64,000 bases of DNA from Escherichia phage vB-Eco-KMB38, in sequence record OR525701.1; one strand, given 5' to 3'. Position numbers and translations under genes: made by a program. The notes under the pieces were generated by a model that saw only the letters and a list, made by a program, of their open reading frames with translations, searched no databases and was not told the DNA's origin. The stretch's first letter is position 1, and each line of letters opens with the position of its first letter. Below, in pieces: positions 1 through 13,536 of the stretch.

Positions 1-292
1 GAGTACGTCTTCAAATGGTGGGGCATAACCGTTCTTACAAATTTCTTCTACTCTAGCATCAGAATGGTGTGTAAAAGCATTCATCAGGGATAGATAAGGT
101 CCGGTTAAAAATGTTCTCATTTAGTTTCTCTTAAGGTTGGGGCCGTTCCGTGGCACATGTTAGGTCCTTCGACTCGCTATGTAAACCCATTACCGCATTG
201 CGCTCGACCTTATTACAGGTTGGAAAAGGTACATCACTCAGAGGACTCGACGTTCATGAGGAGAGGTTGCGTTTCCCTTTATTAGGCAAGAA

Positions 293-622
293 TTATACTC
301 TAGGCTTTTGAGCTTGTTTGGTATTGGATTCCCATGCAGCTTTGGTAATTTTGTTAGCGGCATAACCAAAGGCATTAGATAGAACACCTTTAGAGTTGAA
401 TACATCCAATCCAATAAGTACACCGGCTGTGTTAAATTTAGGAGCAAAGTACGCATTAGTTTTAGAAAGAGCTTTTTTCAATTCAGGGTCTTGAACCAAA
501 CCATCAAAAACGCCTTTACTATTTACTTTATATGTTACTTTGGGATTTTTACCTTCTTCGATAGCAGCTTTCTGTTCCGCAGATAATGTAACTTCAGTGA
601 TAAACTCTTGATACGTTTTCAT
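293..622 (-). CDS. Internal protein (Ip-type) with N-terminal capsid-targeting sequence
   Basis: N-terminus MKTYQEFITE matches the T4 IPI/IPII/IPIII capsid-targeting sequence (MKTYQEFIAE, cleaved by prohead protease after E); RBS AGGAAC upstream. Confidence 0.65.
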   Translation of the reverse strand: MKTYQEFITEVTLSAEQKAAIEEGKNPKVTYKVNSKGVFDGLVQDPELKKALSKTNAYFAPKFNTAGVLIGLDVFNSKGVLSNAFGYAANKITKAAWESNTKQAQKPRV

Positions 623-647
623 TTTGTTCCTATTGTTTTAATTTATG

Positions 648-962
648 TTATTCTTTAGGGAAGTTTTTAGAGTATGCATCATAAAGTTTATTACCAATAC
701 GACGGAAGACTTTAGCTGCAAAACGGTTTTCAGGGTTTTTAATCATGATTTGCATCATGTAAGTTCCTGCATCCGAAAGAGCTTCTTCATAGTACCCATT
801 AATTTCTTTAAGAGTCCTACGTTTACCGCCAGGACCATCAACAGTAATTTTCCATTTACCTGTAGAAGTGCGGCTCGGTGGTTCAACTTGTTCAATCCAA
901 ATATAACCGCCTTCAACGCGTTGGTTGGCGGATTCTGCAATAAATTCTTTATACGTTTTCAT
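648..962 (-). CDS. Internal protein (Ip-type) with capsid-targeting sequence
   Basis: N-terminus MKTYKEFIAE; preceded by a strong sigma70-like early promoter. Confidence 0.65.
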   Translation of the reverse strand: MKTYKEFIAESANQRVEGGYIWIEQVEPPSRTSTGKWKITVDGPGGKRRTLKEINGYYEEALSDAGTYMMQIMIKNPENRFAAKVFRRIGNKLYDAYSKNFPKE

Positions 963-983
963 TTTTGTTTCCTTGTTTGTTTT

Positions 984-1023
984 GATAGAGCAATTATACC
1001 ATATTAATACTTAAGCGTAAACC
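984..1023 (-). promoter_or_regulatory. T4-type early promoter (GTTTAC -35, TATAAT -10) for Ip gene 648..962
   Basis: Minus-strand sense GGTTTACGCTTAAGTATTAATATGGTATAATTGCTCTATCAA, then AAGGAAAC RBS and ATG. Confidence 0.6.
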
Positions 1024-1025
1024 GT

Positions 1026-1286
1026 TTAAGCTTTACCGCCAGAAATAATTCCGAAGTTGTTAAAATCATATCCAATATCGCCAACGTCTACTTTAGGGCT
1101 TGCTACAACATAAGCAATTTCACTACGTTTTGCATAGGTGTTGATTTCTTTACCATCGCCACCTAAGAAAGAATATCCATTACGTTTTAACGAGCCAAAG
1201 TCTTCCGCATCACCAATGAAAGCTTTAACTTTAAATTTAGGACCTTTGGCATCTGCTTCAAAGATAAATTCTTGATACATTTTCAT
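1026..1286 (-). CDS. Internal protein (Ip-type) with capsid-targeting sequence
   Basis: N-terminus MKMYQEFIFE; Gly-rich small protein. Confidence 0.55.
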   Translation of the reverse strand: MKMYQEFIFEADAKGPKFKVKAFIGDAEDFGSLKRNGYSFLGGDGKEINTYAKRSEIAYVVASPKVDVGDIGYDFNNFGIISGGKA

Positions 1287-1292
1287 TTTTCC

Positions 1293-1706
1293 TTAGTAAA
1301 TTGATTTACCATAGTATTTGTACCAAGTCGGACGTTGAGCAATTTTTTCATCTAAGCGTGCTTGACTTATCGCAATGGACGCTTCGGACGGGACATAATT
1401 ATTACGAAATTCGGCAGGTATGTCGGAAATATCCTGGACCGTCGTGTCCTTTATTTTGAAACCGCGTTTCAAACATTCAGCGATTAGCTCGATTTGACGT
1501 AAACGTAAAAATTCGAGTTTGTCGTAAAAGAATGTTACGTGACCTGTGCCTAAGATAAATGTTGGAGAGATTTTAAAATCCTTTACACGTTTACCATTTT
1601 GGACATGTTTACGGACTGCACCAAATACGCGTGGTAATTCACGATACTCAGCCATAAGATGTTGGTCGGTCAGTTCAGAAACAAGTGTTAAATTGATACG
1701 AGTCAT
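1293..1706 (-). CDS. denV: Endonuclease V, pyrimidine-dimer DNA glycosylase/AP lyase
   Basis: Sequence from [29 protein letters not shown] closely matches T4 DenV; start placed at internal Met (ORF track starts 12 nt upstream at 1718). Confidence 0.9.
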
Positions 1707-1764
1707 AATTTCCTCCAAGTAGTTGATGAATGTATAGTATCAAAACCCTTGGAGGAAGTAAACA

Positions 1765-2046
1765 CTATTTTTCTGAAGCGCCTGAAATATATTTTTCAAG
1801 ACGTTGTTTCATCAGCGAGCCGTTCTTAGCGATTTCTTCCGGTTTATCGCACATACGCAACAAGGCTTCAAGCTTAACGATATCACTGGTGCGCTCAAAT
1901 TTGCGAGTATCTATCTTACTAGCAAGTTCAGAAATACGTGCTAATAGACTTTCAGCTTCAACCAAAGCTGCACCTAGCTTAGTTGCAAATGTGTCAGTAG
2001 CTTCGTTAAGAATAGATTCTGATAAAAATTCACTATATGTTTTCAT
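1765..2046 (-). CDS. Internal protein (Ip-type) with capsid-targeting sequence
   Basis: Internal start gives [10 protein letters not shown]; ATG overlaps the lysozyme stop (ATGA); ORF-track start at 2061 is a TTG. Confidence 0.6.
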
Positions 2047-2531
2047 ATATACGCTTTCCAAGTTCCTGTTTTAAATGTTGATATTACGCGTTTCGCGCGA
2101 TTGGGTGTCTGACGATACCATTTAGATTGGGCTAGATTTACTGCCGCTTCGTCCCAACGTTTCTGTTGAAGCATACGAAGAGAATTAGTAAAACCGGCGA
2201 CGCCTGCTACACCCATTTGGAAGACCATATTGACCAATGCACAACGACGAACCGCATCTAAAGAATCGTATACCGGTTTAAGTTTAGCATTACCCAAGAT
2301 TCCGCGAACGGCTTTATCAACGTCTTCATTAAATAGCTTTTCAGCCTCATCAAGGGTAATTGGACCGTTGCATTTACGGCCGATCATTCTGTCAAGTTCA
2401 GCTTTAGCTACGGCTAAAGATGGGTTCTTTGTTACTAAATGGCCTATGCCAATCGTCCAAAAGCCTTCAGTGTCTTTGTATAAAGTCAGTCTAAGACCTT
2501 CGTCATTACGAAGCATTTCAAATATATTCAT
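2043..2531 (-). CDS. e: Lysozyme (endolysin, T4 e)
   Basis: [32 protein letters not shown]... near-identical in pattern to T4 lysozyme; GGAGG RBS directly upstream of the MNIFEML start. Confidence 0.95.
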
Positions 2532-2565
2532 AATACCTCCCACGTTTATAGGAGGTATTTATTAC

Positions 2566-3024
2566 TTATAGGAGGGTAGTGAGCACCTTATATAATGATT
2601 TGCCCATTACATATTCCCATTGAGAAGGTTTAATTAAAGCGAATGCATCAAATTCAGGAATCTGACGTCCGTCCGGGAATGTATGATAGGAATTACAAAC
2701 ACTATTTCTGAATTGCTCGTGCTCTACAGGGATGGTATATAGGAACAGGTGAATATTCTTATTGTCTGAGTAATGATGTTCACCTAGGTCTTTCAGGAAG
2801 GCAGGGTCATATTGTGTAAACCCAGTTTCTTCTTCGCATTCACGAATAGCGGCTTCGATAGGAGATTCGCCGGGCTCGACACGACCTTTAGGAATATCCC
2901 ACCGATGAGCTAAAGAACCTTTAGGACGAGAACCAGTTACACGCCCCATGAATAATTCTTTATCTTCGGTAAGGAAAATAATACCAGCTGATAGTTCTTT
3001 CACTTTATTTTTCTTACTCATCAT
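2566..3024 (-). CDS. nudE: Nudix hydrolase
   Basis: Nudix box GRVEPGESPIEAAIRECEEETG; position immediately upstream of e as in T4 (e.1); start uncertain by 1-5 codons. Confidence 0.85.
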   Translation of the reverse strand: MMSKKNKVKELSAGIIFLTEDKELFMGRVTGSRPKGSLAHRWDIPKGRVEPGESPIEAAIRECEEETGFTQYDPAFLKDLGEHHYSDNKNIHLFLYTIPVEHEQFRNSVCNSYHTFPDGRQIPEFDAFALIKPSQWEYVMGKSLYKVLTTLL

Positions 3025-3512
3025 CTCAAATTCCTGCATTCAGTAATAAAACGTTCAACTTCATTATTCTTGGCCTTTATCTTGGCTTTATGTTCTTGTA
3101 AACTACTTTTAATAAGATTAATAATGATGGCGGCGGTACCGCCGCCAATGATGCCACCAACACCACTTATGATACTAGATGCTAATAAGATAGCAATAAT
3201 ATCAACAAAACCGAAAGAACTCACCTTAGTACTGAAAAACCATATAGACGGTGCAAATATAATCCATCCTGTTATCCATTGACACTTATTGAAAAACTTT
3301 TCAAGCTCAGCTTGAGTTGTTCGTATTACTTCATCGATAGGTTGATATCCATTAATGTATCTGTTCACGATAATACCTGCTGGCTGGTCGATTTTAAATG
3401 CTTGACAATGGCGTTTCACTAAGTATGATGGACATCCTGTCCAATCTATAGAATAATATGAAATACCTTCGTCGCCATCGTCCATGTTTGTCCAGTGAAT
3501 TTTATGTATCAT
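3021..3512 (-). CDS. Hypothetical membrane protein (C-terminal TM segment, tail ERFITECRNLR)
   Basis: ORF with hydrophobic stretch IIAILLASSIISGVGGIIGGGTAAIII; no recognised homologue. Confidence 0.5.
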   Translation of the reverse strand: MIHKIHWTNMDDGDEGISYYSIDWTGCPSYLVKRHCQAFKIDQPAGIIVNRYINGYQPIDEVIRTTQAELEKFFNKCQWITGWIIFAPSIWFFSTKVSSFGFVDIIAILLASSIISGVGGIIGGGTAAIIINLIKSSLQEHKAKIKAKNNEVERFITECRNLR

Positions 3513-4198
3513 TACCAGCCTTCCATAGGGAATTCCAGATAAACTTGGGCGTTGACACGAATTTCATTGGTAATCTTTTTAACTCGGTCTGTATTACGAG
3601 ATACACGTCCGAACCAACGCCATCCATTACTAATTGCACGAGAACCAGTGTGCCATGTTTGCCAATCAAACTGAAGAAGAGTACGATCTGGAGCTTCCCA
3701 TTTCTCTAGTTCGCCTTTTTCGATTTTTTCGAGGACTTCTTTGTGCCACTGGCGATAGATAAGTTCGCCATCAGGAATCTGACTGAACTCTGCAGTTCCT
3801 GTTGCAAAATGAGTAGGACACACATCAGCGTTAACAAGACCAAGAATATGTTCAGAATGGTAACGAGGGTTGTCATAATCAGGTTGTCCTGCAGTAATAA
3901 AGTGTTGACCTACCGGAATATCAGGGCGTGGTACATCGTCATGGTGATAACCTGGGATAGCAGGGTACCAACCAGGCATCAGCATGTGGACTCGTGAATC
4001 AAATACAACCTGGTCGGTGTTCCAATCATCAGGCAAGTTCATGATGAAGCTGCGAGTAATAGGACCGCCGTTATTATAAGCAAATTCTAAACTACAGTTA
4101 AAGAACATAGGCTCGTTCTTGATTTTATCATTAGAAATACCGCCGGCAAAACCACCTACTGCACGAGCTTGACTATTAAACACTTTAGAACTATTCAT
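3512..4198 (-). CDS. Hypothetical protein (228 aa)
   Basis: Long uninterrupted ORF; start codon adjacent to stop of upstream gene; function not recognised. Confidence 0.55.
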   Translation of the reverse strand: MNSSKVFNSQARAVGGFAGGISNDKIKNEPMFFNCSLEFAYNNGGPITRSFIMNLPDDWNTDQVVFDSRVHMLMPGWYPAIPGYHHDDVPRPDIPVGQHFITAGQPDYDNPRYHSEHILGLVNADVCPTHFATGTAEFSQIPDGELIYRQWHKEVLEKIEKGELEKWEAPDRTLLQFDWQTWHTGSRAISNGWRWFGRVSRNTDRVKKITNEIRVNAQVYLEFPMEGW

Positions 4199-4199
4199 A

Positions 4200-4505
4200 T
4201 TATTTTCCTCGACATTCTTTAATGAAATTTTCTAGATTGGTAGATTCAATAGCTTTTTTACGAGCTTCTGCGTGTTCTTCTTCAGACAATTTACGTTTAT
4301 AATTGACCCAGACATTATGGTCGAAACCAGTCGTGGCATATAATATCAATGCTCCAACGAATAGCAAAAACGGCGATAAGAATACAAAACCAGGAACACC
4401 ATCCATATCGTAAGCCTTTTGTAATACTGCAACAGAAAGAGCTACGTAAAAAGGTGATGCAAGTATTGTTAAAAGACCAATTCGGTTGGTTTCTGTTAAT
4501 TTCAT
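4200..4505 (-). CDS. Hypothetical small membrane protein
   Basis: Two hydrophobic helices; GAGGAG RBS; C-terminal ENFIKECRGK; downstream of PeSL promoter. Confidence 0.55.
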   Translation of the reverse strand: MKLTETNRIGLLTILASPFYVALSVAVLQKAYDMDGVPGFVFLSPFLLFVGALILYATTGFDHNVWVNYKRKLSEEEHAEARKKAIESTNLENFIKECRGK

Positions 4506-4520
4506 AATATTCTCCTCAAG

Positions 4521-4562
4521 TTGATAGGACTACTATAACATAGTCCTATAATTGTGTAAACA
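4521..4562 (-). promoter_or_regulatory. PeSL-type early promoter cassette (GTTTAC -35, extended -10 TGTTATAGT inside 10-bp inverted repeat)
   Basis: Plus strand gataggactactataacatagtcctataattgtgtaaac; near-identical copies at 5816 and 12439. Confidence 0.6.
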
Positions 4563-4573
4563 GTTTTGTGAAG

Positions 4574-5530
4574 TTATTTGAAAGGTTTTACCATATGGAA
4601 ATTTTGTTTGAAACGTTTGACGTAATCGTCATGTCCTAAGCGTTGGTACATACTTACAACTTTGCTGTAGTTTTCCCAGGCGTATTCACGGAACCAACCG
4701 GAGGTGATGCTTGTGCAAACTTTTTCTAATGCCATCATGAAACTGGCTTCAGAGTTAATTTCAAAGTTATTAGGAATCTGAGAACGTTCTAATGCTAGTA
4801 CACATGATTCTTCATATACACCGGCCAATTTGACCATTTCTGGTAACGATTCGAACTTCTCGCGTGAGGTCATGACTTCAGAACCATCTTTCATGTAAAA
4901 TGTATAAGCCGGACGGTCTGTTAGTGCAATGGCTTCGTGAATAGTATCATGGTCATATGTGTAGATGTCATCTTTAAAGAATGCGCTTTTAGAAGTGTCA
5001 AGAATCGGGTGAGCATAGTTCAAGGTTTCTTTCTGGCGTTTCAGCATAATTTCAGTAAGTTCATCGTTCAGTGTAACACCTTTACCACGAAGATACTGGA
5101 TATGGTTCATAGTCTTTAAAAAGAATGGATTATTTTTCTTGAAACGATGAGACATTTTAATTGCAAGACATATCTCAGGAGTTGCCCAGTAAAACCCGGT
5201 CAAACGATCTTTAGTCAAATTTTTCTTGGCGTATTTTAAAAGGTCATAAGAAGACGTGAAATCTTCAGGAGTGAGTTCACCGACTAATTCACGAACATTA
5301 GTGATTGCCGGAACAATATATGCTTCAAAATGAGTTTCGCGTCCATTATGGAAGCATTTGAAAACTTGGACATCAGGGTTATCTTGGTGAACATATACAC
5401 CCATCATTTGATTTTTGAATGCATTCCAAGAACCTTGGTCCGCAATAAAGTCCCAATCGCTATTTTTGATAGCGCTAGAATCAATAAGACCATGATAGTG
5501 AAGTGCACGAGAACCAATAACTAACATCAT
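4574..5530 (-). CDS. Hypothetical protein (318 aa)
   Basis: Long ORF with GAGGAAAATATT RBS; no recognised family. Confidence 0.55.
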   Translation of the reverse strand: MMLVIGSRALHYHGLIDSSAIKNSDWDFIADQGSWNAFKNQMMGVYVHQDNPDVQVFKCFHNGRETHFEAYIVPAITNVRELVGELTPEDFTSSYDLLKYAKKNLTKDRLTGFYWATPEICLAIKMSHRFKKNNPFFLKTMNHIQYLRGKGVTLNDELTEIMLKRQKETLNYAHPILDTSKSAFFKDDIYTYDHDTIHEAIALTDRPAYTFYMKDGSEVMTSREKFESLPEMVKLAGVYEESCVLALERSQIPNNFEINSEASFMMALEKVCTSITSGWFREYAWENYSKVVSMYQRLGHDDYVKRFKQNFHMVKPFK

Positions 5531-5558
5531 AATATTTTCCTCGGATTAATTCATCAAC

Positions 5559-5810
5559 TTAAATTTCACGACATGCGATATTATATTCATCCCATAGGTC
5601 ATCATGTGAAGCCTCTACCAATGGAACGATTGTACCGTTTATGTCTTCATTATAAGGGCAAATTGTACAGTGCGCATCTTCGAATCGGATGCCTTTGTGT
5701 TCAGATTTTTTATAACGCATATCGAATAACTTTGCAAACTTTTCACGAGTAATAGTTTTAGCAACTACTTCGGTTCCAATACTTTCGTAATAAATCATTG
5801 TGGACTCCAT
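5559..5810 (-). CDS. Hypothetical small protein with Cys/His cluster
   Basis: 83 aa, HCTICPYNEDING...H suggests possible metal binding; PeSL promoter directly upstream. Confidence 0.5.
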   Translation of the reverse strand: MESTMIYYESIGTEVVAKTITREKFAKLFDMRYKKSEHKGIRFEDAHCTICPYNEDINGTIVPLVEASHDDLWDEYNIACREI

Positions 5811-5815
5811 TTAAT

Positions 5816-5857
5816 TTGATAGGACTACTATAACATAGCCCTATCTTGTTGTAAACT
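5816..5857 (-). promoter_or_regulatory. PeSL-type early promoter cassette
   Basis: gataggactactataacatagccctatcttgttgtaaac, repeat of the element at 4521. Confidence 0.6.
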
Positions 5858-5860
5858 GTT

Positions 5861-6058
5861 TTAGCAAGAATAACTAGACGATACCCAGCCTTGAACAGTA
5901 ATGCTATTATTAGATAATGAGATTGCGTTCTGGAGATTCAGACCTGCGTTATCTTCAATCCATAATGTAACTTCTTCGCGTTCTTCTGTTGCAATTTGGA
6001 ACAGGTTTTCCAGGGCAGCTACTGCCGTACGTACAGCACAATCTAATTCACGAGACAT
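5861..6058 (-). CDS. Small protein, paralogue family member (ends GWVSSSYSC)
   Basis: 65 aa; shares C-terminal W-x-S-S-S-x-x-C motif with the next two genes. Confidence 0.5.
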   Translation of the reverse strand: MSRELDCAVRTAVAALENLFQIATEEREEVTLWIEDNAGLNLQNAISLSNNSITVQGWVSSSYSC

Positions 6059-6067
6059 ATGGTTTCC

Positions 6068-6340
6068 TTAGCAAGTGTGAGAAGATGCGATCCAACCACC
6101 AGTTTCGAGGCTCAGGTTGTAGTCGTATTGGTAAACGTCAGCCCATTCAGCATAGCCGTTTTTTGTACAACGTTCAAGATCGGCTTTAAGCTGTCCGGGT
6201 GAATGATATGTTCCACCCATACCATAAGCTGGATACAAGTCGAATGTTGTGTTTTGTTTATCAGCAATTTCTTTGGCAGCCTCAATAGCTGCATAGATTT
6301 TTGCTACAGCTTCAGCCAGTTCGGTTTGTTCTTTAGACAT
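6068..6340 (-). CDS. Small protein, paralogue family member (ends GGWIASSHTC)
   Basis: 90 aa; N-terminus MSKEQ; conserved C-terminal motif followed by TAAGGAA RBS of next gene. Confidence 0.5.
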   Translation of the reverse strand: MSKEQTELAEAVAKIYAAIEAAKEIADKQNTTFDLYPAYGMGGTYHSPGQLKADLERCTKNGYAEWADVYQYDYNLSLETGGWIASSHTC

Positions 6341-6349
6341 AATGATTCC

Positions 6350-6655
6350 TTAGCACAACGCAGAAGACGAAACCCAAGCACCTTCAGTAATAACGTAACC
6401 ATTACCTTCACGCTTAACATCGCCACCATTATTTTCAATTTCATCTTTCATCCACTGGGATACGATTTCACCCTTAGGATAATAAGTACGACCGCTACCA
6501 TAATCACCTACAGAAAATGATACAGAATATTGGTCTGCGATCTTTGTTGCTTCTTCTTCGATACGTTCAGCTTGATTCAGAAGTTTATAAATTGCATCTG
6601 AAGCGGATTTGGCATCATTAAACTCTGGTACTTTAATTTCAATAATCTTACTCAT
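6350..6655 (-). CDS. Small protein, paralogue family member (ends GAWVSSSALC)
   Basis: 101 aa; N-terminus MSKI; same C-terminal motif. Confidence 0.5.
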   Translation of the reverse strand: MSKIIEIKVPEFNDAKSASDAIYKLLNQAERIEEEATKIADQYSVSFSVGDYGSGRTYYPKGEIVSQWMKDEIENNGGDVKREGNGYVITEGAWVSSSALC

Positions 6656-7011
6656 TTTCTACATTCCTTAATAAAGTTTTCTATTGTTTCATTTTCACGT
6701 CTAGCTAGGAGTTCATTATAACTAATCATTTGAGAAGCGTAAACCTTTTTATTTTTCTTGTTATGGTTTATAAAATCGTAGTAAAAATAGACTACAGTAC
6801 AAAAGGATGCGATGGATGCAAAGGCTTGGGTATACCGTAAGTCCTGCCATTGGTCTGTGAATCCACCAGTGTTCCCTATAAATCCTAACACAACGCCGTC
6901 AATAAGAAATCCAACTAATCCAAAGGCAAATCCCATGCCAATACTCATAATAAAAATTAGAATGTTCTCACCAAGAGAAGGCCATACGGTTAAGAGTTGA
7001 GGTTTTTGCAT
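6652..7011 (-). CDS. Hypothetical membrane protein
   Basis: Hydrophobic segments; AAGGAAAT RBS; C-terminal IENFIKECRK. Confidence 0.55.
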   Translation of the reverse strand: MQKPQLLTVWPSLGENILIFIMSIGMGFAFGLVGFLIDGVVLGFIGNTGGFTDQWQDLRYTQAFASIASFCTVVYFYYDFINHNKKNKKVYASQMISYNELLARRENETIENFIKECRK

Positions 7012-7385
7012 CTTATTTCCTTAACGAATTCCATAGCTTCTTCATATTCATACTTTTTAACAGCTTCATCATACTGAGCTTGGGCTTTTGCGCACTGAAC
7101 TTTCCACTCGCGAACTCGAGCTCTGTGATGACGGCCTTGGTGCCAATATCCTGCCCAATTAATAGGCATTAATAAAAACGGTACAATAAGTGGTGCGACG
7201 AACATTAATGAAAACGCTGCATCAGACGATATAACTTTATTGGAATCTAAAATAGCTCCTATAATCATAAAGATTAAAAATGCTAAAGCTAAAATAGGGC
7301 CAAATAGTACTTCGTTTGGGATTAATTTACGTTTGTATTCGTATGCCCATGGCTTAATTGGCATGTACAGGGTTGGCTTTGACAT
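6990..7385 (-). CDS. Hypothetical membrane protein
   Basis: ORF-track start at 7415 is TTG; first ATG gives MSKPTLYMPIK; two hydrophobic helices; C-terminal EFVKEIRCK. Confidence 0.5.
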   Translation of the reverse strand: MSKPTLYMPIKPWAYEYKRKLIPNEVLFGPILALAFLIFMIIGAILDSNKVISSDAAFSLMFVAPLIVPFLLMPINWAGYWHQGRHHRARVREWKVQCAKAQAQYDEAVKKYEYEEAMEFVKEIRCKNLNS

Positions 7386-7977
7386 ATTCTCTACATTCCA
7401 TAATAAATTGCTCAAGGATTAAATTGTTAGTGAAATTAGGACTAACAACCATAGTTTCATAAAGCGCATCAATAGCACTTAAAGCATCAACTCTTTTAAG
7501 CAAAGGCTTGCCTTCATACATAGTTTCAGAATCGACGATTAACGTAAAGTAATATTTTTTATTATCGACTAGAACTTCTGTGTCGATATAAAACATATTA
7601 GACCTCAGAAGCTTATCTCTAAAACCATAATAATCTTCTGAACGTTCGCTGATATATTCCCATTCAGTGTTTAAACAACAAACAGACCACGTAGGAGCAA
7701 CGAAATCAGTGAATCTAATATCATGGTCTGCAACTAGTTTAGCAATAGCTCCGATATCATGAATCATAATACCTGGGGCTAATAAAGATTTTCTGCTATG
7801 GCTAGCCGTTTTCTCAGTGGTCTCATAAGAAGCTGACCAGTACCATTTACGTCCGGTTGCAACATATCGTAATGAATCAACTAAAGACGTAGGTGGATTT
7901 ACCTTATCTCGGAACTCTTCGAACATCGAGTCAATATCATTATTTTGGTTTCGCATGTTAACTCCTTTATCATCCAA
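7354..7977 (-). CDS. Hypothetical protein (207 aa)
   Basis: ORF with C-terminal EQFIMECREY motif overlapping next gene start. Confidence 0.5.
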   Translation of the reverse strand: MDDKGVNMRNQNNDIDSMFEEFRDKVNPPTSLVDSLRYVATGRKWYWSASYETTEKTASHSRKSLLAPGIMIHDIGAIAKLVADHDIRFTDFVAPTWSVCCLNTEWEYISERSEDYYGFRDKLLRSNMFYIDTEVLVDNKKYYFTLIVDSETMYEGKPLLKRVDALSAIDALYETMVVSPNFTNNLILEQFIMECREYVKANPVHAN

Positions 7978-8005
7978 AAGGAGGACCGGAGTCCTCCGTA
8001 TTATT

Positions 8006-8599
8006 TTATTTCAAAGAGTTAATATATTCTTGTACATCAGCAGAAGTGGTTTCGACACCGGCTGGAGTACCATTGAACGTTTCAACACGAGTCAGAGTGT
8101 CTTCGATATCAACCTTAGTCAGTGCAGCGATTTCAATTACATCATCGGCCGTAGAGATACCAAGGGCATTGGCTGCTCGAGTTTCACGAATGTATTCGAG
8201 TTTGATTGCCAGATTCTGACGAGCATCATCAAGTTCAACCACCTTACGAGCAATTTCAATTCGCATAGCGGCATACCCGTCGGCTTTTGTATTAAGTTGT
8301 TCGGCAGTTCGACGATACAGAAGACCAAGCTTAGCATGCATGGTAACATCTTGTCCTTCGGCCAAGAGCTTACGAATTTCACGTTCCTTAGAAGCGGCTT
8401 GTTTATTCTTTTCAATAACAAGTTCGCGAATACGTTTTTCTTCATTAATAGATTTAACAGAAGCCGTTTTTAGTTCTTTGATTTGGGTAATCAACTTATC
8501 TGCAGCTGCGTTATACTGTTCTTCGACAGTCAGATTTTTAGCCATAGCAGTACCCAGTTTAGTGCGGATGAATTCAACAAGTTTCTTCAGTGTGTTCAT
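8006..8599 (-). CDS. Coiled-coil protein, possibly PspA/IM30-like
   Basis: Start at MNTLKK after AAAGG RBS (ORF-track start is 5 codons upstream); heptad-rich, charge-alternating sequence resembling PspA architecture; assignment is inference. Confidence 0.45.
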
Positions 8600-8669
8600 A
8601 TTATTACCTTTCAATTGGTGGTTTATTATCCAATGAGAGCATTATACTCTGCTCTCAAGAGTTTGTAAA

Positions 8670-8897
8670 TTATTTTTTAATCAAATTGACATAAAACTTG
8701 GCGTCTTCCGGGTGCATGCCTTCACAGTATTCTTCAACCATGAACTTCTTAACAGCTTCATAAGGACCACTCAGATTAAGCTCAGTTGTCCAGAACTTGG
8801 AATCTTGGGCTGAATCGATACGAACTTCAGGGTGACGGTTGCGAATAACTTCTTCGGTATATTCATAATCAACGACATCAATACTAACTTTAGCCAT
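8670..8897 (-). CDS. Hypothetical small protein (75 aa)
   Basis: ORF with AGAGGAAAAC RBS downstream of an early promoter. Confidence 0.5.
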   Translation of the reverse strand: MAKVSIDVVDYEYTEEVIRNRHPEVRIDSAQDSKFWTTELNLSGPYEAVKKFMVEEYCEGMHPEDAKFYVNLIKK

Positions 8898-8914
8898 TTT
8901 GTTTTCCTCTTGAT

Positions 8915-8958
8915 TTGATGTGATTACTATAACATAAACTTACTTAGATGTAAATTAT
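8915..8958 (-). promoter_or_regulatory. Early promoter (ATTTAC -35, TGTTATAGT extended -10)
   Basis: Minus-strand sense AATTTACATCTAAGTAAGTTTATGTTATAGTAATCACATCAA. Confidence 0.45.
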
Positions 8959-9108
8959 TTCAACGTCACCTTTAGCGGCTTTATAACCTTCAGCCCAAGA
9001 TACAACAGAGTTTTTATCTGAGGATTCAAATTCAGGCATTGGACTTTCACCGATATTCACACAGTATGTTTCTTCATTTTCATCGAACCAAATAATTAAA
9101 GTAGTCAT
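8945..9108 (-). CDS. Hypothetical small protein (~54 aa, below ORF-track cut-off)
   Basis: MTTLIIWFDENEETYCVNIGESPMPEF... preceded by GAGGAGTAAACAAA RBS and a promoter; coordinates approximate. Confidence 0.35.
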
Positions 9109-9168
9109 TTTGTTTACTCCTCTGTAGTTGATAAGTCTATAGTATCACCATCCTTGGTGCTTGTACAT
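9107..9168 (-). promoter_or_regulatory. Early promoter cassette; 44-bp copy also present at 45181-45224
   Basis: tcattttgtttactcctctgtagttgataagtctatagtatcac repeated near-exactly at 45181. Confidence 0.5.
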
Positions 9169-9176
9169 CGTTATTT

Positions 9177-9482
9177 TTAATTTTTCCAACTTAACAACTT
9201 GTAGTGTCCTTCATTCGTACGAGGTTTATCCCAAGAAATACTAATATATGATTCGCTATCAATAGAAGTCGCCGGGTTTTTCTCTACCGTAAGACCTTCA
9301 CTTTCCAGCCATTCAATAGTATTTGCGCATAAATCAGAAGAACACCTCATCGGGAACCGGCAAGATTTTTCACCTTTAGCTGCAGTGTTATACATCTTTT
9401 CTAGAATACGCTTTTGCACGTTTTTAAAAATAGTTTCAGCAGATTCTTCAGATTTTTTATTCAGTTCAGTATAAAGACTCAT
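9177..9482 (-). CDS. Hypothetical protein (101 aa)
   Basis: ORF with GAGGAAAATG RBS downstream of early promoter. Confidence 0.5.
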   Translation of the reverse strand: MSLYTELNKKSEESAETIFKNVQKRILEKMYNTAAKGEKSCRFPMRCSSDLCANTIEWLESEGLTVEKNPATSIDSESYISISWDKPRTNEGHYKLLSWKN

Positions 9483-9499
9483 AACATTTTCCTCTGCGG

Positions 9500-9540
9500 T
9501 TGATAAGTCTATAGTATCATGTCCTTAGAAGAAGTAAACA
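9500..9540 (-). promoter_or_regulatory. Early promoter (GTTTAC -35, TGATACTAT extended -10)
   Basis: Minus-strand sense GTTTACTTCTTCTAAGGACATGATACTATAGACTTATCAAC. Confidence 0.55.
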
Positions 9541-9570
9541 TCTTTATGAAATATTTTTATGCCCTAGATA

Positions 9571-9599
9571 CCAAAAAGCCCCAACCGTAAGGAAGGGGC
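9571..9599 (-). terminator. Rho-independent terminator (GCCCC...GGGGC hairpin plus U-run on minus strand)
   Basis: gccccaaccgtaaggaaggggc preceded on plus strand by aaaaa; lies just 3' of Ip gene 9606..10070. Confidence 0.55.
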
Positions 9600-9605
9600 A
9601 TTCTA

Positions 9606-10070
9606 TTATTTAATTTGTTTAGCAGACCAGATACGGTCTTTAATAAGTTTTTGGATATCTTCAACATACTCAAGGCTATGAGCGTGAGGATTATCTTTGA
9701 AACTATGTGCTCGTGCCAGTTTCTGGCCTTCTGTTTTGATTACTAAAAGCTCTTTAAGAATTGCTTCATACTTAGAAATAATTCCTTTGGCGATATTTTT
9801 TTCTTGAGCTGTTTTAGGGTCCGCTTTTGGCGCAGGTGCTTTACCTGTAGCTTTCTGGAACAATTCACCTGATGCAGCTAGGCTTTTAAAAACTCGGCTA
9901 ACAGTATTAGCATTAGTAAAACCTTCGGCTTTAAAATCTCTAATAAAACGGAAACGTTCTTCATCGGAGGCGTCTTTGTAAGAATATTTACCTGCTTGAA
10001 TTGCTGCAATCGCAGCGGCTTTTACATCTGAACTAGATTGTTCAGTCAAAAATTCAGCGTATGATTTCAT
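9606..10070 (-). CDS. Internal protein (Ip-type) with capsid-targeting sequence
   Basis: N-terminus MKSYAEFLTE; 154 aa. Confidence 0.55.
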   Translation of the reverse strand: MKSYAEFLTEQSSSDVKAAAIAAIQAGKYSYKDASDEERFRFIRDFKAEGFTNANTVSRVFKSLAASGELFQKATGKAPAPKADPKTAQEKNIAKGIISKYEAILKELLVIKTEGQKLARAHSFKDNPHAHSLEYVEDIQKLIKDRIWSAKQIK

Positions 10071-10113
10071 GTTGCTTTTCCTAAGTTAATTAACTTATCT
10101 ATTTATTATTATA

Positions 10114-10142
10114 CCAAAAAGCCCCAACCTTTCGGAAGGGGC
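10114..10142 (-). terminator. Rho-independent terminator
   Basis: gccccaacctttcggaaggggc with U-run on minus strand; near-copy of hairpin at 9578. Confidence 0.55.
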
Positions 10143-10194
10143 TAAGCCTTGCGGCAACCTTGTCGGGGTTCCACCTGCTAAGGCAAGTGTTTGT

Positions 10195-10286
10195 ACGAAA
10201 CGCCGGGATTCGAACCCGGTTATTAAGTAGTTGACGCTACTCAATATTTTTAAAAGGCCATATCTCGACCATATCCGAACGTTCCG
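10195..10286 (-). ncRNA. tRNA-like structured RNA (canonical T-arm and acceptor pairing, aberrant D/anticodon region)
   Basis: Minus-sense CCGGGTTCGAATCCCGG T-arm; 5' CGGAACG pairs with 3' CGTTTCG; interior does not fold as a standard cloverleaf. Confidence 0.3.
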
Positions 10287-10456
10287 TCAAAAACGCTACT
10301 CGGCTTACGGCAAAGATATTTCCTCGAATCGATAATTCTGTGCGCCGTTTCTGCTGTGAGATAAGGGACTTTAAGATGTCAACTCATGTACGCCTTAAAG
10401 TCGGGTCTTATTCAGGGAACATCAGTCCGACGACTTGCCGGTAGCGACCCGGCTTC

Positions 10457-10801
10457 TTATTTTGGCATATCATCAATTTGCTCTCGACGCCGACGCCATA
10501 GATTAATCGCTTCATTAACACATTCGGCGTTTGGTATATGACGGCAATAATATAATGATTCACGTTTCTGGAACCGATGTTGCAACGGGATTTCGTTTAA
10601 AAGGTCTTTACGGTCAAAGTATTCAAAACTAGTTAACCCAGAACGGTTTTTAATGAACTTCCAATGTCCAAATTCATTTTGAACATAGATGTAATCGGCA
10701 TGCTGATACAGCGAATTAATCAATCGATGAGAAATAACTGTATCATATTCGTTAAAATAAAACGTTAAATCATGAACTACCAGATAAACATTGCCTTTCA
10801 T
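10457..10801 (-). CDS. Hypothetical protein
   Basis: ORF-track start at 10849 would overlap tRNA-Arg; internal Met MKGNVYLVVHDL chosen. Confidence 0.45.
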   Translation of the reverse strand: MKGNVYLVVHDLTFYFNEYDTVISHRLINSLYQHADYIYVQNEFGHWKFIKNRSGLTSFEYFDRKDLLNEIPLQHRFQKRESLYYCRHIPNAECVNEAINLWRRRREQIDDMPK

Positions 10802-10819
10802 ATTTTCCTCACTTAAAGT

Positions 10820-10896
<77 letters not shown>

Positions 10897-10902
10897 AATA
10901 TA

Positions 10903-10976
10903 TGACCCAGACCAGATTCGAACTGGTAACCTTTCCCTTATGAGGGGACTGCTGCTAACCGTTGAGCTACAGGGCC
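10903..10976 (-). tRNA. tRNA with CAU anticodon (Ile2/Met type)
   Basis: Minus sense GGCCCTG...GTCCC-CTCATAA-GGGAA...ACCAG-TTCGAAT-CTGGT-CTGGGTC-A; adjacent to tRNA-Arg as in the T4 Ile-Arg pair. Confidence 0.65.
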
Positions 10977-11038
10977 TAAATAACTTTCTATTATGAAAGG
11001 CACTTTAGAGCACCTTTGGTAATAGATGGTATGAATTA

Positions 11039-11065
11039 ATAATAACACATAATTCTTAAAGCAAA
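11039..11065 (-). promoter_or_regulatory. Candidate MotA-dependent middle promoter upstream of the tRNA genes
   Basis: Minus sense TTTGCTTTA (MotA-box-like) followed 12 nt later by TATTAT. Confidence 0.4.
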
Positions 11066-11571
11066 TCAATCATTTTAACAGTTGGCAAAACGATTTCTTC
11101 TTCAATATAAGCAAATTCAACACATTCAACTACACGCAAGAAATCATAATCATAATATTCAGAAGCATGACCAAGAATACCAACGAGACCTTCTGATACT
11201 AAATATCCATTCTCACGGAACAGGTCGAATACACGCGATTCGTCTTCTTCAGATTTATTACCAAGGTCGACTTCAATATCAAAGACCTTTTTAATGAATT
11301 CTGGATAAAGCTGGTCTGAGAACAGTCCTTCAACCAAGTATTCGTAGATTAAAAGCGAGCAATCACTGAATGGTGTATTACCACAGTAACGTTCAGCTTT
11401 AGTGCTGGAATGACGACTCTTAAATTTCTTCAAAAGATATTTAAACTGTTGGAGCTCATGCTCTTCCACTTCAAACAATGTTTTGGTTTTATAGTTGTCA
11501 CCATCATTTTCATAAGTAGTGACATCAATTACGTAACCCTTAGGAATTGTACTGCCTAAACAAATATTCAT
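11056..11571 (-). CDS. Hypothetical protein (171 aa)
   Basis: ORF; acidic; no recognised family. Confidence 0.5.
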   Translation of the reverse strand: MNICLGSTIPKGYVIDVTTYENDGDNYKTKTLFEVEEHELQQFKYLLKKFKSRHSSTKAERYCGNTPFSDCSLLIYEYLVEGLFSDQLYPEFIKKVFDIEVDLGNKSEEDESRVFDLFRENGYLVSEGLVGILGHASEYYDYDFLRVVECVEFAYIEEEIVLPTVKMIDLL

Positions 11572-11575
11572 TTAC

Positions 11576-11866
11576 TCACCGTACCATATTAATGTAATTA
11601 TATTCAATGCAACGTAATTTCAAAGGATTCTTGAAAATATCATATTCAAGAGGGCCTTTTTCTGTTTCAATAAAGAAATCAAAGTTAACTGTGTTAAATT
11701 TATCATCTTCACAGAGTAATTTAACTTGCGAAGATGAACGGTCGATATAAACCTTTTCAACCTCAAAGTTAGTCAGAATACCATAGTCATTAACTAGTGC
11801 TTTAGCTGCACGTTGATCGCTTTCATATCCATTCTCGACAGATTTTACTTTAGCATAAAGAATCAT
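11576..11866 (-). CDS. Hypothetical protein (96 aa)
   Basis: ORF with start overlapping the upstream stop. Confidence 0.5.
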   Translation of the reverse strand: MILYAKVKSVENGYESDQRAAKALVNDYGILTNFEVEKVYIDRSSSQVKLLCEDDKFNTVNFDFFIETEKGPLEYDIFKNPLKLRCIEYNYINMVR

Positions 11867-12225
11867 GAGTGTTCCACCACTTCAAAGGTATGAGCATCAA
11901 CAATATGATACCAGTCAAAATTTTCTTCTGCGTTTTTATAAATTTCGCGAAGAGCCTCAACAGTTTTTCCTGTAGCAACAAGGTCGTCAATACCGCCAAG
12001 AGGATAACAGTCATATCCAGCAAACAGAAGGAAATTAATAGTTTCTGTAGGTTCTGGATGCAGAACACCGTTATCGTCTACCACTTCAAAGAAAGTGTAA
12101 GAAGGAGTACAAGTTTTAATCCAAGCCCATGCTTGAGCTGCTGAATCAAATGGTCTGCGTATCAAACGACAATCAGGGTCTTTAGAAGGATTTGCTTCAA
12201 AATCTGCATATACATGATATTTCAT
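11863..12225 (-). CDS. Hypothetical protein (120 aa)
   Basis: ORF; tight packing with neighbours. Confidence 0.5.
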   Translation of the reverse strand: MKYHVYADFEANPSKDPDCRLIRRPFDSAAQAWAWIKTCTPSYTFFEVVDDNGVLHPEPTETINFLLFAGYDCYPLGGIDDLVATGKTVEALREIYKNAEENFDWYHIVDAHTFEVVEHS

Positions 12226-12432
12226 TTACTCACCTTTTGCAATTTTATCCATAACAATAGCGATTAAACCGATTAGAAATGCTACTACCAATGAGATAGA
12301 ATTTTCTGTTGTTGTCAGTAGTCCACAAATGAATCCTACAAACATCGAAAAACTAAAGGCCATTGAAGCAATTACTACAGCAACATTACGAATCAGTTCA
12401 GCGCGTTTCATTTTATTTCTCCATTTACTCAT
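12226..12432 (-). CDS. Hypothetical small membrane protein
   Basis: 68 aa with two hydrophobic helices; PeSL promoter upstream. Confidence 0.5.
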   Translation of the reverse strand: MSKWRNKMKRAELIRNVAVVIASMAFSFSMFVGFICGLLTTTENSISLVVAFLIGLIAIVMDKIAKGE

Positions 12433-12438
12433 TTGTTT

Positions 12439-12478
12439 TGATAGGACTACTATAACATAGTCCTATCGTGTTGTAAAC
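12439..12478 (-). promoter_or_regulatory. PeSL-type early promoter cassette
   Basis: gataggactactataacatagtcctatcgtgttgtaaac, third copy of the 4521 element. Confidence 0.6.
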
Positions 12479-12481
12479 TAC

Positions 12482-12769
12482 TTACAGAAGAGTTTTTGCA
12501 ATAATTTTAAGCTGAGCTACAGAAATATGCTTAGCTTTAAACAGTGCAGTCTCTTCAGCCGGAGAGATAACAATAGTAGCGCCATCTTTCTTAGCAGACC
12601 ATCCATCCCCTAAGTAAACAGTACCTTTTACTTCTTCACCATCAACCAGACTAATCATTGGTTTACCCTCACGTCCTTTATTTGTTTTAATAACTTCAGA
12701 AGTAAGGGATGCTTCGGTCAGAGTAGAAACGTTAGCAACAGGTGATATAAATTCTTTATAGGTTTTCAT
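12482..12769 (-). CDS. Internal protein (Ip-type), at the ipI position upstream of 57B
   Basis: N-terminus MKTYKEFIS...TLTE; 95 aa; synteny with T4 ipI. Confidence 0.6.
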   Translation of the reverse strand: MKTYKEFISPVANVSTLTEASLTSEVIKTNKGREGKPMISLVDGEEVKGTVYLGDGWSAKKDGATIVISPAEETALFKAKHISVAQLKIIAKTLL

Positions 12770-12793
12770 TTTATTTCCTTGAGGCTGTTTATT

Positions 12794-12833
12794 TGATAGG
12801 ATGATAGTAACACACCATCATCCTTATGTAAAC
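12794..12833 (-). promoter_or_regulatory. PeSL-type early promoter cassette (variant)
   Basis: Minus-strand sense GTTTACATAAGGATGATGGTGTGTTACTATCATCCTATCAA with GGATGAT/ATCATCC inverted repeat. Confidence 0.55.
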
Positions 12834-12846
12834 TGTTTTGTGAAAA

Positions 12847-13532
<686 letters not shown>

Positions 13533-13536
13533 TTTA

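What the first reader, a model, noticed from the sequence alone, without database searches (positions are those of the whole stretch)
3512..5530. Two large uncharacterised early proteins in the hyperplastic e-to-tRNA region
ORFs of 228 aa (3512..4198, His/Asp-rich with HHDD and HSEH motifs that could be metal ligands) and 318 aa (4574..5530) are much larger than typical ORFans in this region and are not recognisable as T4 proteins. Large early accessory proteins in this locus are plausible enzymes acting on host nucleic acids or defence systems.
Basis: inference. Interest (0 to 1): 0.5.

Follow-up and report, generated by a model that had tools for sequence, protein, structure and literature searches.

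The report
Phage oxygenase plus nucleotidyltransferase cassette
The two "unknown" genes of this T4-like phage are an iron/2-oxoglutarate oxygenase and, separately, a nucleotidyltransferase that across many phage types is always encoded next to small acidic proteins ending in the same Ser-Ser-x-x-Cys tail, an undescribed enzyme-partner module whose target is still unknown.

Summary
Both ORFs are real minus-strand genes of Escherichia phage AlbertHofmann (Bas47, Mosigvirus), annotated "hypothetical" and absent from the whole T4 genome.

The 318-aa protein (DUF7277+DUF7275) has a polymerase-beta-type nucleotidyltransferase N-domain, closest to MenT1, ANT(2'') and MenT3, with invariant GS, DxD and an acidic third residue. 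Its highly conserved helical C-domain has no structural match.

The two enzymes are not a functional pair. They are neighbours in 23 loci, all but one at least 75% identical to the query.

The nucleotidyltransferase does have a constant partner: 1-6 tandem upstream genes for small acidic proteins ending ...W-x-S-S-S-x-x-Cys. These occur in 74 of 80 loci, against 0 of 59 control loci. The window holds three copies (5861-6655).

I infer, without proof, that the enzyme acts on or with these tails. I found no publication on any of the three families.

The parts
3512..4198 (-). 228-aa stand-alone Fe(II)/2-oxoglutarate dioxygenase of an unclassified family (phrog_1843, no Pfam). Candidate ligand codons: H85 at 3944-3946, D87 at 3938-3940, H183 at 3650-3652. 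Candidate 2OG-binding R194 at 3617-3619. R198 at 3605-3607. Invariant C-terminal W228 at 3515-3517.
4574..5530 (-). 318-aa nucleotidyltransferase. N-domain DUF7277 (residues 2-101) carries G6-S7, D25-x-D27 and E69. The helical C-domain DUF7275 (residues 120-305) carries invariant K125, H128, H174, D193-H194-D195, H198, E240-E241, C243, E248-R249, C272 and the S274-S277 stretch.
6350..6655 (-). Small acidic tail-Cys protein, copy 1 (101 aa, ends ...GAWVSSSALC; phrog_899).
   Evidence: Family HMM E 1.6e-18. PHROG match. pI 4.6.
6068..6340 (-). Small acidic tail-Cys protein, copy 2 (90 aa, ends ...GGWIASSHTC; phrog_899).
   Evidence: Family HMM E 6.5e-17. PHROG match.
5861..6058 (-). Small acidic tail-Cys protein, copy 3 (65 aa, ends ...QGWVSSSYSC; phrog_4882). 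It shares only the tail with the other two copies.
   Evidence: Tail-motif regex: the only three such ORFs in the 64-kb window are these three. PHROG match.
5559..5810 (-). 83-aa ORF between the promoter element and the nucleotidyltransferase gene. It is lineage-specific and probably co-transcribed with that gene.
   Evidence: Found in only 12 of 80 nucleotidyltransferase loci. phrog_3723.
5818..5856 (-). PeSL-like early promoter plus stem-loop (TTTACA-N17-TATAGT with upstream TG; 11-bp stem), upstream of the 83-aa and nucleotidyltransferase genes.
   Evidence: fold z-score -4.8. Matches the published description in PMC4122927.
4523..4561 (-). Second copy of the PeSL-like element, upstream of the 101-aa membrane-protein gene and the oxygenase gene. 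It also marks a module boundary in a relative.
   Evidence: Homology with L005, which lacks the nucleotidyltransferase cassette, begins at window 4550.
4200..4505 (-). 101-aa protein with two predicted membrane segments, ending ...FIKECRGK. Its stop lies directly next to the oxygenase start codon.
3021..3512 (-). 163-aa membrane protein, ending ...FITECRNLR. Its start overlaps the oxygenase stop. It is related to T4 e.2.
   Evidence: phrog_2203. T4 e.2 hits the same PHROG. Hydropathy and junction sequence.

Best explanation
Relative to T4, this phage carries about 3.1 kb of extra DNA (3512-6655) holding two independent accessory modules.

Module 1 is the 228-aa protein, a soluble stand-alone Fe(II)/2-oxoglutarate-dependent dioxygenase. 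Fe(II) would be held by H85, D87 and H183, and 2-oxoglutarate by R194. It would hydroxylate or oxidatively dealkylate a substrate that is still unknown. The fold is closest to PhyH/EctD-type small-molecule hydroxylases. Outside T4-like phages the gene sits among replication and nucleotide-metabolism genes.

Module 2 is a conserved cassette. It consists of one to six (here three) tandem genes for small acidic proteins with diverged bodies and an invariant C-terminal tag, G-x-W-x-[S/A]-S-S-x-x-Cys-COOH. These are followed by the 318-aa enzyme. That enzyme has a polymerase-beta-type nucleotidyltransferase domain (G6-S7, D25-x-D27, E69) fused to a family-specific helical domain rich in invariant His, Asp, Glu and Cys.

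Shown: the folds, the catalytic-motif conservation, the gene linkage, and the absence from T4.

Inferred: the nucleotidyltransferase transfers a nucleotide (NMP) from an NTP onto a hydroxyl group of the co-encoded tail, most likely one of the conserved serines, or otherwise needs that tail as its partner. Both modules are probably expressed early from PeSL-type promoters.
For: Oxygenase:
- Confident model.
- In 96 relatives of 33-55% identity to the query, the only invariant columns are G83, H85, D87, H183, R194, R198 and W228.
- H85 and D87 lie at the end of a strand, and H183 and R194 lie on consecutive strands.

Nucleotidyltransferase:
- Confident model.
- G6, S7, D25, D27 and K125 are invariant, and E69 is acidic in 43 of 44 diverse sequences.

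Cassette:
- The small-protein HMM hits 71 of 80 enzyme-anchored viral loci, or 74 of 80 when tail-motif matches are added.
- There are 145 copies, all on the same strand and 143 of them upstream.
- In the control set the family is present in 23 of 23 loci with the enzyme and 0 of 59 without it.
- Replicated in 4 of 5 loci from genome bins.
- The converse holds for three diverged small proteins.
- Tail conservation: Cys 99%, Ser 89% and 83%, Trp 85%.
- Paralogues within a locus share 22% identity in the body but keep the tail key positions.

Independence of the two modules: plus Aeromonas genomes where they lie tens of kb apart.

Absence from T4.

Promoters.
Against: - There is no biochemical or expression evidence for any of this.
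- The MenT motif IV aspartate has no obvious counterpart.
- Gene linkage shows partnership, not that the small proteins are the substrate. They could equally be inhibitors or adaptors.
- Loci are phylogenetically related, so the Fisher P value overstates independence.
- The related loci were found by pattern-seeded scans that favour conserved relatives.
- ORFs in the loci were called mechanically.
- The oxygenase substrate is not constrained: no neighbour recurs in more than 7 of 52 diverged loci.
Confidence: 0.6

Rival explanations
1. The 318-aa enzyme is a MenT/AbiEii-like tRNA nucleotidyltransferase that adds nucleotides to tRNA 3' ends, either to shut off host translation or to repair or protect tRNA ends. 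The upstream small proteins would be antitoxin-like inhibitors or specificity factors, not substrates.
For: - The best structural match is MenT1, and MenT3 and MenT4 are also hits.
- MenT antitoxin genes are small and lie upstream of the toxin gene (PMC10435456).
- The gene lies in the region next to the phage tRNA genes.
- In subsets of loci the neighbours include PNKP and a metallophosphoesterase, which are RNA-end chemistry.
Against: - No member matches Pfam DUF1814/AbiEii, even at E<=1.
- There is no counterpart of the MenT motif IV Asp.
- The large invariant C-domain is absent from MenT.
- One to six diverged paralogues sharing only a terminal tag is unlike a cognate antitoxin.
- PNKP linkage is limited to 9 of 52 related loci.
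Confidence: 0.22
2. The 318-aa enzyme nucleotidylates a small molecule such as an antibiotic-like compound, a metabolite or an immune signal, as ANT(2'') and LnuA do. Its link to the small proteins would then be indirect.
Against: This does not explain the near-obligate, same-strand, upstream linkage to tail-Cys proteins across very different phages. There are no sequence matches to resistance-enzyme families.
Confidence: 0.12
3. The oxygenase and the nucleotidyltransferase work together in one pathway, which is the implicit reading of the original finding.
For: They lie within about 0-3 kb on the same strand in 23 loci, all but one at least 75% identical to the query. Both are enzymes.
Against: - None of the 59 oxygenase loci without the nucleotidyltransferase is unusual in any other respect, and the 57 enzyme-anchored loci without the oxygenase still carry the small proteins.
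- In three Aeromonas phage genomes the two genes are tens of kb apart.
- L005 keeps the oxygenase but lacks the cassette, with the breakpoint in the PeSL element between them.
Confidence: 0.04
4. The 228-aa oxygenase acts on nucleic acids or nucleotides, for example AlkB-like oxidative dealkylation of DNA or RNA, rather than on a small metabolite or a protein.
For: - In diverged phages the gene sits among DNA ligase, Pol A, DnaB, an SF1 helicase and NAMPT, and near RtcB RNA ligase in a Gordonia phage.
- Its host range spans Gram-negatives, actinobacteria and Bacillus, which suggests a universal target.
Against: - There is no Pfam 2OG-FeII_Oxy, AlkB or Tet_JBP hit in any of 96 members.
- No single neighbour is conserved.
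Confidence: 0.25

Closest known systems
MenT / AbiEii (DUF1814) nucleotidyltransferase toxins (MenT1 8an4, MenT3/TglT 6j7n, MenT4 6y56)
   Different: There is no DUF1814 sequence match and no motif IV Asp. The query has an extra ~190-residue invariant helical domain (DUF7275) with no structural relative. It is carried by lytic phages rather than being a chromosomal toxin-antitoxin pair. Its partners are 1-6 diverged paralogues sharing a Cys-terminal tag. tRNA activity is untested.
Small-molecule nucleotidyltransferases ANT(2'')-Ia (4xje) and LnuA (4wh5)
   Different: There is no sequence relationship and no antibiotic context. The query has a large additional conserved domain and an obligate protein partner.
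Nucleotidyltransferases that modify a co-encoded protein: MNT antitoxins that AMPylate HEPN toxins, and CitX/MdcG that attach a nucleotide-derived prosthetic group to a Ser of an acyl carrier protein (from memory, not tested here)
   Same: Precedent for the proposed logic: a polymerase-beta-superfamily enzyme encoded next to the small protein whose hydroxyl side chain it modifies.
   Different: No detectable homology was tested or found. The acceptor here would be a C-terminal W-x-S-S-S-x-x-C tag, which is unknown in those systems.
PhyH / EctD / EasH-type Fe(II)/2-oxoglutarate dioxygenases
   Different: About 10% sequence identity, and no Pfam PhyH membership (1 of 96 members at E 0.068). The query is much smaller (228 aa) and has an invariant C-terminal Trp. 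Its substrate is unknown.
PeSL (promoter-early stem-loop) cassettes of T4-type phages (PMC2839356, PMC4122927)
   Same: TTTACW-N17-TAYWAT promoter with an adjacent stem-loop, located in a hyperplastic region at the borders of variable gene modules.
   Different: In these copies the stem encloses the -10 element. Only three copies occur in this 64-kb window. A role in recombination is inferred from one breakpoint only.

Membership tests
Fe(II)/2-oxoglutarate-dependent dioxygenase superfamily | Double-stranded beta-helix (jelly-roll) core fold | tested here: met
Fe(II)/2-oxoglutarate-dependent dioxygenase superfamily | HxD/E...H facial triad for Fe(II) | tested here: met
   H85, D87 and H183 are invariant in 96 relatives of 33-55% identity to the query.
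Fe(II)/2-oxoglutarate-dependent dioxygenase superfamily | Basic residue binding the C5 carboxylate of 2OG, on the strand after the distal His | tested here: met
   R194 (H183+11) is invariant, as is R198. Both lie on the strand spanning residues 192-201.
Fe(II)/2-oxoglutarate-dependent dioxygenase superfamily | 2OG- and Fe(II)-dependent oxidation activity | not testable with these tools
   Needs an enzyme assay.
Pfam PhyH (PF05721) and other named 2OG oxygenase families (AlkB, Tet_JBP, P4H) | Significant match to the family HMM | tested here: not met
   No Pfam hit for the query. Among 96 relatives there is one PhyH hit at E 0.068 and three cupin (AraC_binding) hits at E 0.003 or weaker. There are also no NCBIfam hits.
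Polymerase-beta-like nucleotidyltransferase superfamily | Nucleotidyltransferase alpha/beta core fold | tested here: met
Polymerase-beta-like nucleotidyltransferase superfamily | hG[GS] motif, [DE]x[DE] motif and a third acidic residue on a later strand | tested here: met
   G6, S7, D25 and D27 are invariant, and E69 is Glu or Asp in 43 of 44 diverse sequences.
MenT / AbiEii (DUF1814) toxins | Match to Pfam DUF1814/AbiEii | tested here: not met
   None of 61 family members hits it at E<=1.
MenT / AbiEii (DUF1814) toxins | Motif III Lys (MenT1 K137) and motif IV Asp (MenT1 D152), as given in PMC10435456 | tested here: inconclusive
   K125 is invariant and plausibly corresponds to motif III. There is no invariant Asp between residues 126 and 192. 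No residue-level structural alignment was available.
MenT / AbiEii (DUF1814) toxins | Nucleotide addition to tRNA 3' ends, and toxicity neutralised by a cognate antitoxin | not testable with these tools
   Needs tRNA labelling or sequencing and toxicity assays.
Pfam DUF7277 + DUF7275 architecture | Both domains above the gathering score | tested here: met
   97.2 and 262 bits against a cut-off of 27. All 61 aligned relatives carry both domains.
Ribosomally made, post-translationally modified peptide (RiPP) system | Precursor genes next to a modifying enzyme, and a demonstrated modification | tested here: inconclusive
   Tandem small genes with an invariant Ser/Cys tail lie next to an enzyme. 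However, no known RiPP enzyme family was detected, there is no protease or exporter, and no chemistry has been shown.

The most novel reading that the evidence does not exclude
The nucleotidyltransferase and its tail-Cys partners form a new phage post-translational modification system. The N-domain would nucleotidylate a serine in the W-x-S-S-S-x-x-C tail. The Cys/His-rich DUF7275 domain (invariant C243, C272, H174, H194, H198) would then process it, for example by elimination to dehydroalanine followed by attack of the terminal cysteine to form a C-terminal thioether ring. This would yield a set of modified small acidic effectors deployed early in infection. The Ser(-3)...Cys(0) spacing matches that of C-terminal rings in some lanthipeptides (from memory).
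Probability: 0.12. Interest if true: 0.85.

Novelty: new variant of a known kind. Interest (0 to 1): 0.55.

Why it matters
Hyperplastic regions of T4-like phages hold most of their unexplained genes. This analysis gives two of them testable enzymatic identities. It also shows that one of them belongs to a conserved module found in T4-like, Vequintavirinae-like, Pseudomonas and jumbo phages, and almost nowhere in cellular genomes.

An enzyme that always travels with a variable set of small proteins carrying one invariant C-terminal tag suggests tag-directed protein modification by phages. If confirmed, it would add a new tool and a new class of early effectors to phage-host biology.

The oxygenase defines a large family of 735 clusters at 50% identity that Pfam does not yet cover.

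Tried and rejected
1. Sequence searches against solved structures found nothing significant. I tried both single proteins, family profiles A1, A2 and A3, and a profile of the nucleotidyltransferase N-domain alone.
2. NCBIfam and PADLOC gave only sub-threshold noise.
3. I considered whether the 83-aa ORF directly upstream of the nucleotidyltransferase gene is the conserved partner. It is not: it occurs in only 12 close relatives.
4. I considered whether T4 e.2 is a tail-Cys protein. It is not: it is related to the 163-aa membrane protein.
5. I considered whether the ~227-aa proteins downstream of the enzyme in other phages are the oxygenase. They are not.
8. T4 NrdC.11, an annotated nucleotidyltransferase, is not a paralogue: the A2 HMM finds nothing in T4.
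10. An early script read files that did not exist, so its 'no hits' was void; I reran it.
11. The AV110 early-protein screen chose candidates by T4 homology. As these genes have no T4 homologue they were most likely not among the 45 tested; the list itself was not readable.
12. Literature searches by DUF, PHROG and ORF names returned nothing.
Full report
**What is there.** The window is 100% identical over positions 2000-6000 to Escherichia phage AlbertHofmann (Bas47, Mosigvirus; MZ501047.1). The two ORFs exist as described, on the minus strand, and are annotated as hypothetical proteins bas47_0230 and bas47_0232. The gene order in the direction of transcription is:
- three small ORFs (6655-5861);
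- a promoter/stem-loop element (5856-5818);
- an 83-aa ORF;
- the 318-aa gene (5530-4574);
- a second copy of the promoter/stem-loop (4561-4523);
- a 101-aa gene for a protein with two membrane segments;
- the 228-aa gene (4198-3512);
- a 163-aa membrane-protein gene;
- nudE, e and denV.

The tRNA genes lie at 10820-10976. T4 has only a 161-bp gap after nudE at this position. Profile searches of every T4 ORF of at least 30 aa find no relative of either protein. The observation and its 'not T4' element are therefore confirmed.

**The 228-aa protein.** It has no Pfam, NCBIfam or PADLOC match and belongs only to the unannotated phrog_1843. The family is large: 1,291 clusters in the 90% database and 735 clusters at 50% identity. 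It occurs in 472 phage records, including Aeromonas, Klebsiella, Mycobacterium, Gordonia and Bacillus phages. A few depositors label it 2OG-Fe(II) oxygenase or phytanoyl-CoA dioxygenase.

The decisive test was conservation at depth. In 96 representatives sharing 33-55% identity with the query, the only invariant columns are G83, H85, D87, H183, R194, R198 and W228. That is the HxD...H triad plus the 2OG-binding arginine, each on the expected strand of the model.

H86, D88 and most of HSEH are not conserved; only H117 is, at 90% or more.

Family membership at the sequence level fails. Of 96 members, one gives a PhyH hit at E 0.068 and none reaches any named 2OG family. I therefore file it as a new family within the superfamily.

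The substrate is open. In 52 diverged viral loci no neighbour recurs in more than 7 loci. Those that do recur are DNA ligase, NAMPT, Pol A, DnaB, an SF1 helicase and an HNH endonuclease. In a Gordonia phage the gene lies two genes after an RtcB ligase.

**The 318-aa protein.** It matches two Pfam domains of unknown function, DUF7277 (residues 2-101) and DUF7275 (120-305). There are 2,221 homologous clusters and relatives in 733 phage records. The model is confident (pLDDT 93.6).

The polymerase-beta nucleotidyltransferase signature is present and invariant. G6-S7, D25-x-D27 and K125 are conserved in all 44 diverse sequences, and E69 is acidic in 43 of 44.

Membership in the MenT/AbiEii family is not established. 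There is no DUF1814 hit in 61 members, and no counterpart of the motif IV aspartate described in PMC10435456.

**The two genes are not a pair.** The nucleotidyltransferase gene lies 0-3 kb upstream of the oxygenase gene in 23 loci. All but one of these are among the loci at least 75% identical to the query; the exception, L042, is on a 155-kb contig. It is absent from the neighbourhood of the oxygenase in the other 59 loci. In three Aeromonas phage genomes the two genes are tens of kb apart (contig ranges). In L005 the oxygenase is kept while the whole upstream cassette is replaced. There, homology starts at window 4550, inside the promoter/stem-loop element.

**An unexpected constant partner.** Clustering the neighbours of the nucleotidyltransferase in 52 diverged viral loci revealed a small-protein family upstream on the same strand. 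These proteins have a median ORF length of 93 aa and are acidic (median pI 4.4). They end in a nearly invariant tail. Counting back from the C-terminus, Cys is the last residue in 99% of sequences, Ser at -3 in 83%, Ser at -4 in 89%, Ser or Ala at -5 in 73%, Trp at -7 in 85% and Gly at -9 in 62%.

The family HMM hits 71 of 80 enzyme-anchored loci, or 74 of 80 when a tail regex is added. There are 145 copies, all on the same strand and 143 upstream, with 1-6 per locus.

The control is clean. In oxygenase-anchored loci the family is present in 23 of 23 loci with the enzyme and 0 of 59 without it. The nominal Fisher P is 7.5e-21, but the loci are not phylogenetically independent.

The link replicates in 4 of 5 loci from a scan of 185,579 species genomes. 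All five are metagenome bins, which also shows that the enzyme is essentially phage-restricted.

The link also holds in the converse direction. For three diverged small proteins from different phage types, a DUF7277+DUF7275 gene lies 0-0.6 kb downstream.

Paralogues within one locus share a median 22% identity in the body but keep the tail key positions.

The window carries exactly three such ORFs (6350-6655, 6068-6340, 5861-6058) and T4 carries none. The family is phrog_899/phrog_4882, has no Pfam domain and is 'hypothetical' in every source. No fusion with the enzyme was seen.

**Mechanism.**

Shown:
- Both large proteins have enzyme folds with intact, deeply conserved catalytic signatures.
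- The nucleotidyltransferase is genetically coupled to tail-Cys proteins.

Inferred:
- The enzyme transfers a nucleotide to a hydroxyl group. The conserved Ser-Ser of the partner tail is the most economical acceptor.
- Nucleotidyltransferases that modify a co-encoded protein are known (MNT-HEPN, CitX/MdcG; from memory).
- A set of diverged proteins sharing one invariant tag looks like a set of substrates rather than a cognate antitoxin.

I put the probabilities at:
- about 0.35 that the tail is the substrate;
- about 0.22 for a MenT-like tRNA enzyme regulated by the small proteins;
- about 0.12 for a small-molecule acceptor.

A further elimination/cyclisation step involving the Cys/His-rich C-domain is speculative (0.12).

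For the oxygenase I commit only to Fe(II)/2OG-dependent oxidation. A PhyH-like small-molecule hydroxylation is slightly favoured by fold, and a nucleic-acid or nucleotide target slightly favoured by context.

**Expression.** Each block is preceded by a near-identical element: GTTTACA-N17-TATAGT with an upstream TG, and a 10-11-bp stem around the -10 box. Three copies occur in the window against none expected by chance, with fold z-scores of -2.5 to -5.2. This matches the published PeSL class, TTTACW-N17-TAYWAT plus a stem-loop (PMC4122927). No late-promoter motif (TATAAATA) occurs in positions 1-13,886. Early expression is thus likely but unmeasured. A recent AV110 early-protein screen chose its candidates by T4 homology, so it most likely did not include these genes.

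**Novelty.** Searches by DUF, PHROG, ORF and phage names, and for related concepts, found no description of any of the three families. Both enzymes belong to known superfamilies. The oxygenase family is unclassified, and the nucleotidyltransferase/tail-Cys cassette appears undescribed.

Noticed in passing
window 4523-4561(-), 5818-5856(-), 12440-12478(-): Three near-identical copies of an early-promoter-plus-stem-loop element (PeSL-like). Two of them bracket the 83-aa/nucleotidyltransferase block. In relative L005, homology to the window begins inside the 4523-4561 copy.
   Followed up: partly
window 3021-3512, 4200-4505, 6652-7011, 6990-7415, 7354-7977 (all minus strand): Five neighbouring proteins, four with predicted membrane segments, end in the same motif F-[IV]-x-E-C-R (one variant is FVKEIRC). 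The motif is encoded by a ~20-nt direct repeat (TTTATTAnnGAATGTAGA) that runs into the next gene's start codon. These repeats flank the inserted modules and may be recombination or translational-coupling sites.
   Followed up: partly
L002/T4 record 67472-67627(-): An unannotated 51-aa ORF in T4's nudE-e.2 gap ends ...NNFITECRKLK. T4 e.2 matches the N-terminal part of the window's 163-aa membrane protein (phrog_2203). T4 e.2 plus this ORF therefore look like a split version of that gene.
   Followed up: partly
window 10903-10976(-): ARAGORN calls this tRNA Met (anticodon CAT), whereas the GenBank record annotates it as tRNA-Ile reading ATA. This is the usual ambiguity for a lysidine-modified tRNA-Ile2.
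   Followed up: no
L175 5388-5861; L181 7654-8195; L133 9753-10613; L137 930-1856; L128 8543-9286: In subsets of diverged phages the nucleotidyltransferase cassette sits next to a Macro domain protein, SIR2, PNKP and a calcineurin-like phosphoesterase. In L175 it also sits next to NAMPT and rIIA/rIIB-like genes. These neighbours have an NAD/ADP-ribose and RNA-end chemistry flavour.
   Followed up: partly
window 3515-3517 (W228 of the oxygenase): The last residue of the oxygenase, a Trp preceded by Gly, is invariant across 96 diverse relatives, although the model is of low confidence there (pLDDT below 50 for residues 224-228). A C-terminal Trp may plug or complete the active site.
   Followed up: no
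window 5559-5810(-): The 83-aa ORF co-transcribed with the nucleotidyltransferase gene contains a C-x-x-C pair (HCTICP) and ends ...IACREI. It is restricted to close relatives (12 of 80 loci).
   Followed up: partly
window 13887-54661: The T4 late-promoter motif TATAAATA occurs 18 times against about 8 expected. All copies lie beyond position 13,886 and most are on the plus strand, which marks the switch from the early/accessory region to late genes.
   Followed up: no
L003 (Gordonia phage Engineer) 3327-5666: The actinophage homologue of the oxygenase (gp76) lies two genes downstream of an RtcB-like RNA ligase (gp74) and near a metallophosphatase (gp71).
   Followed up: no
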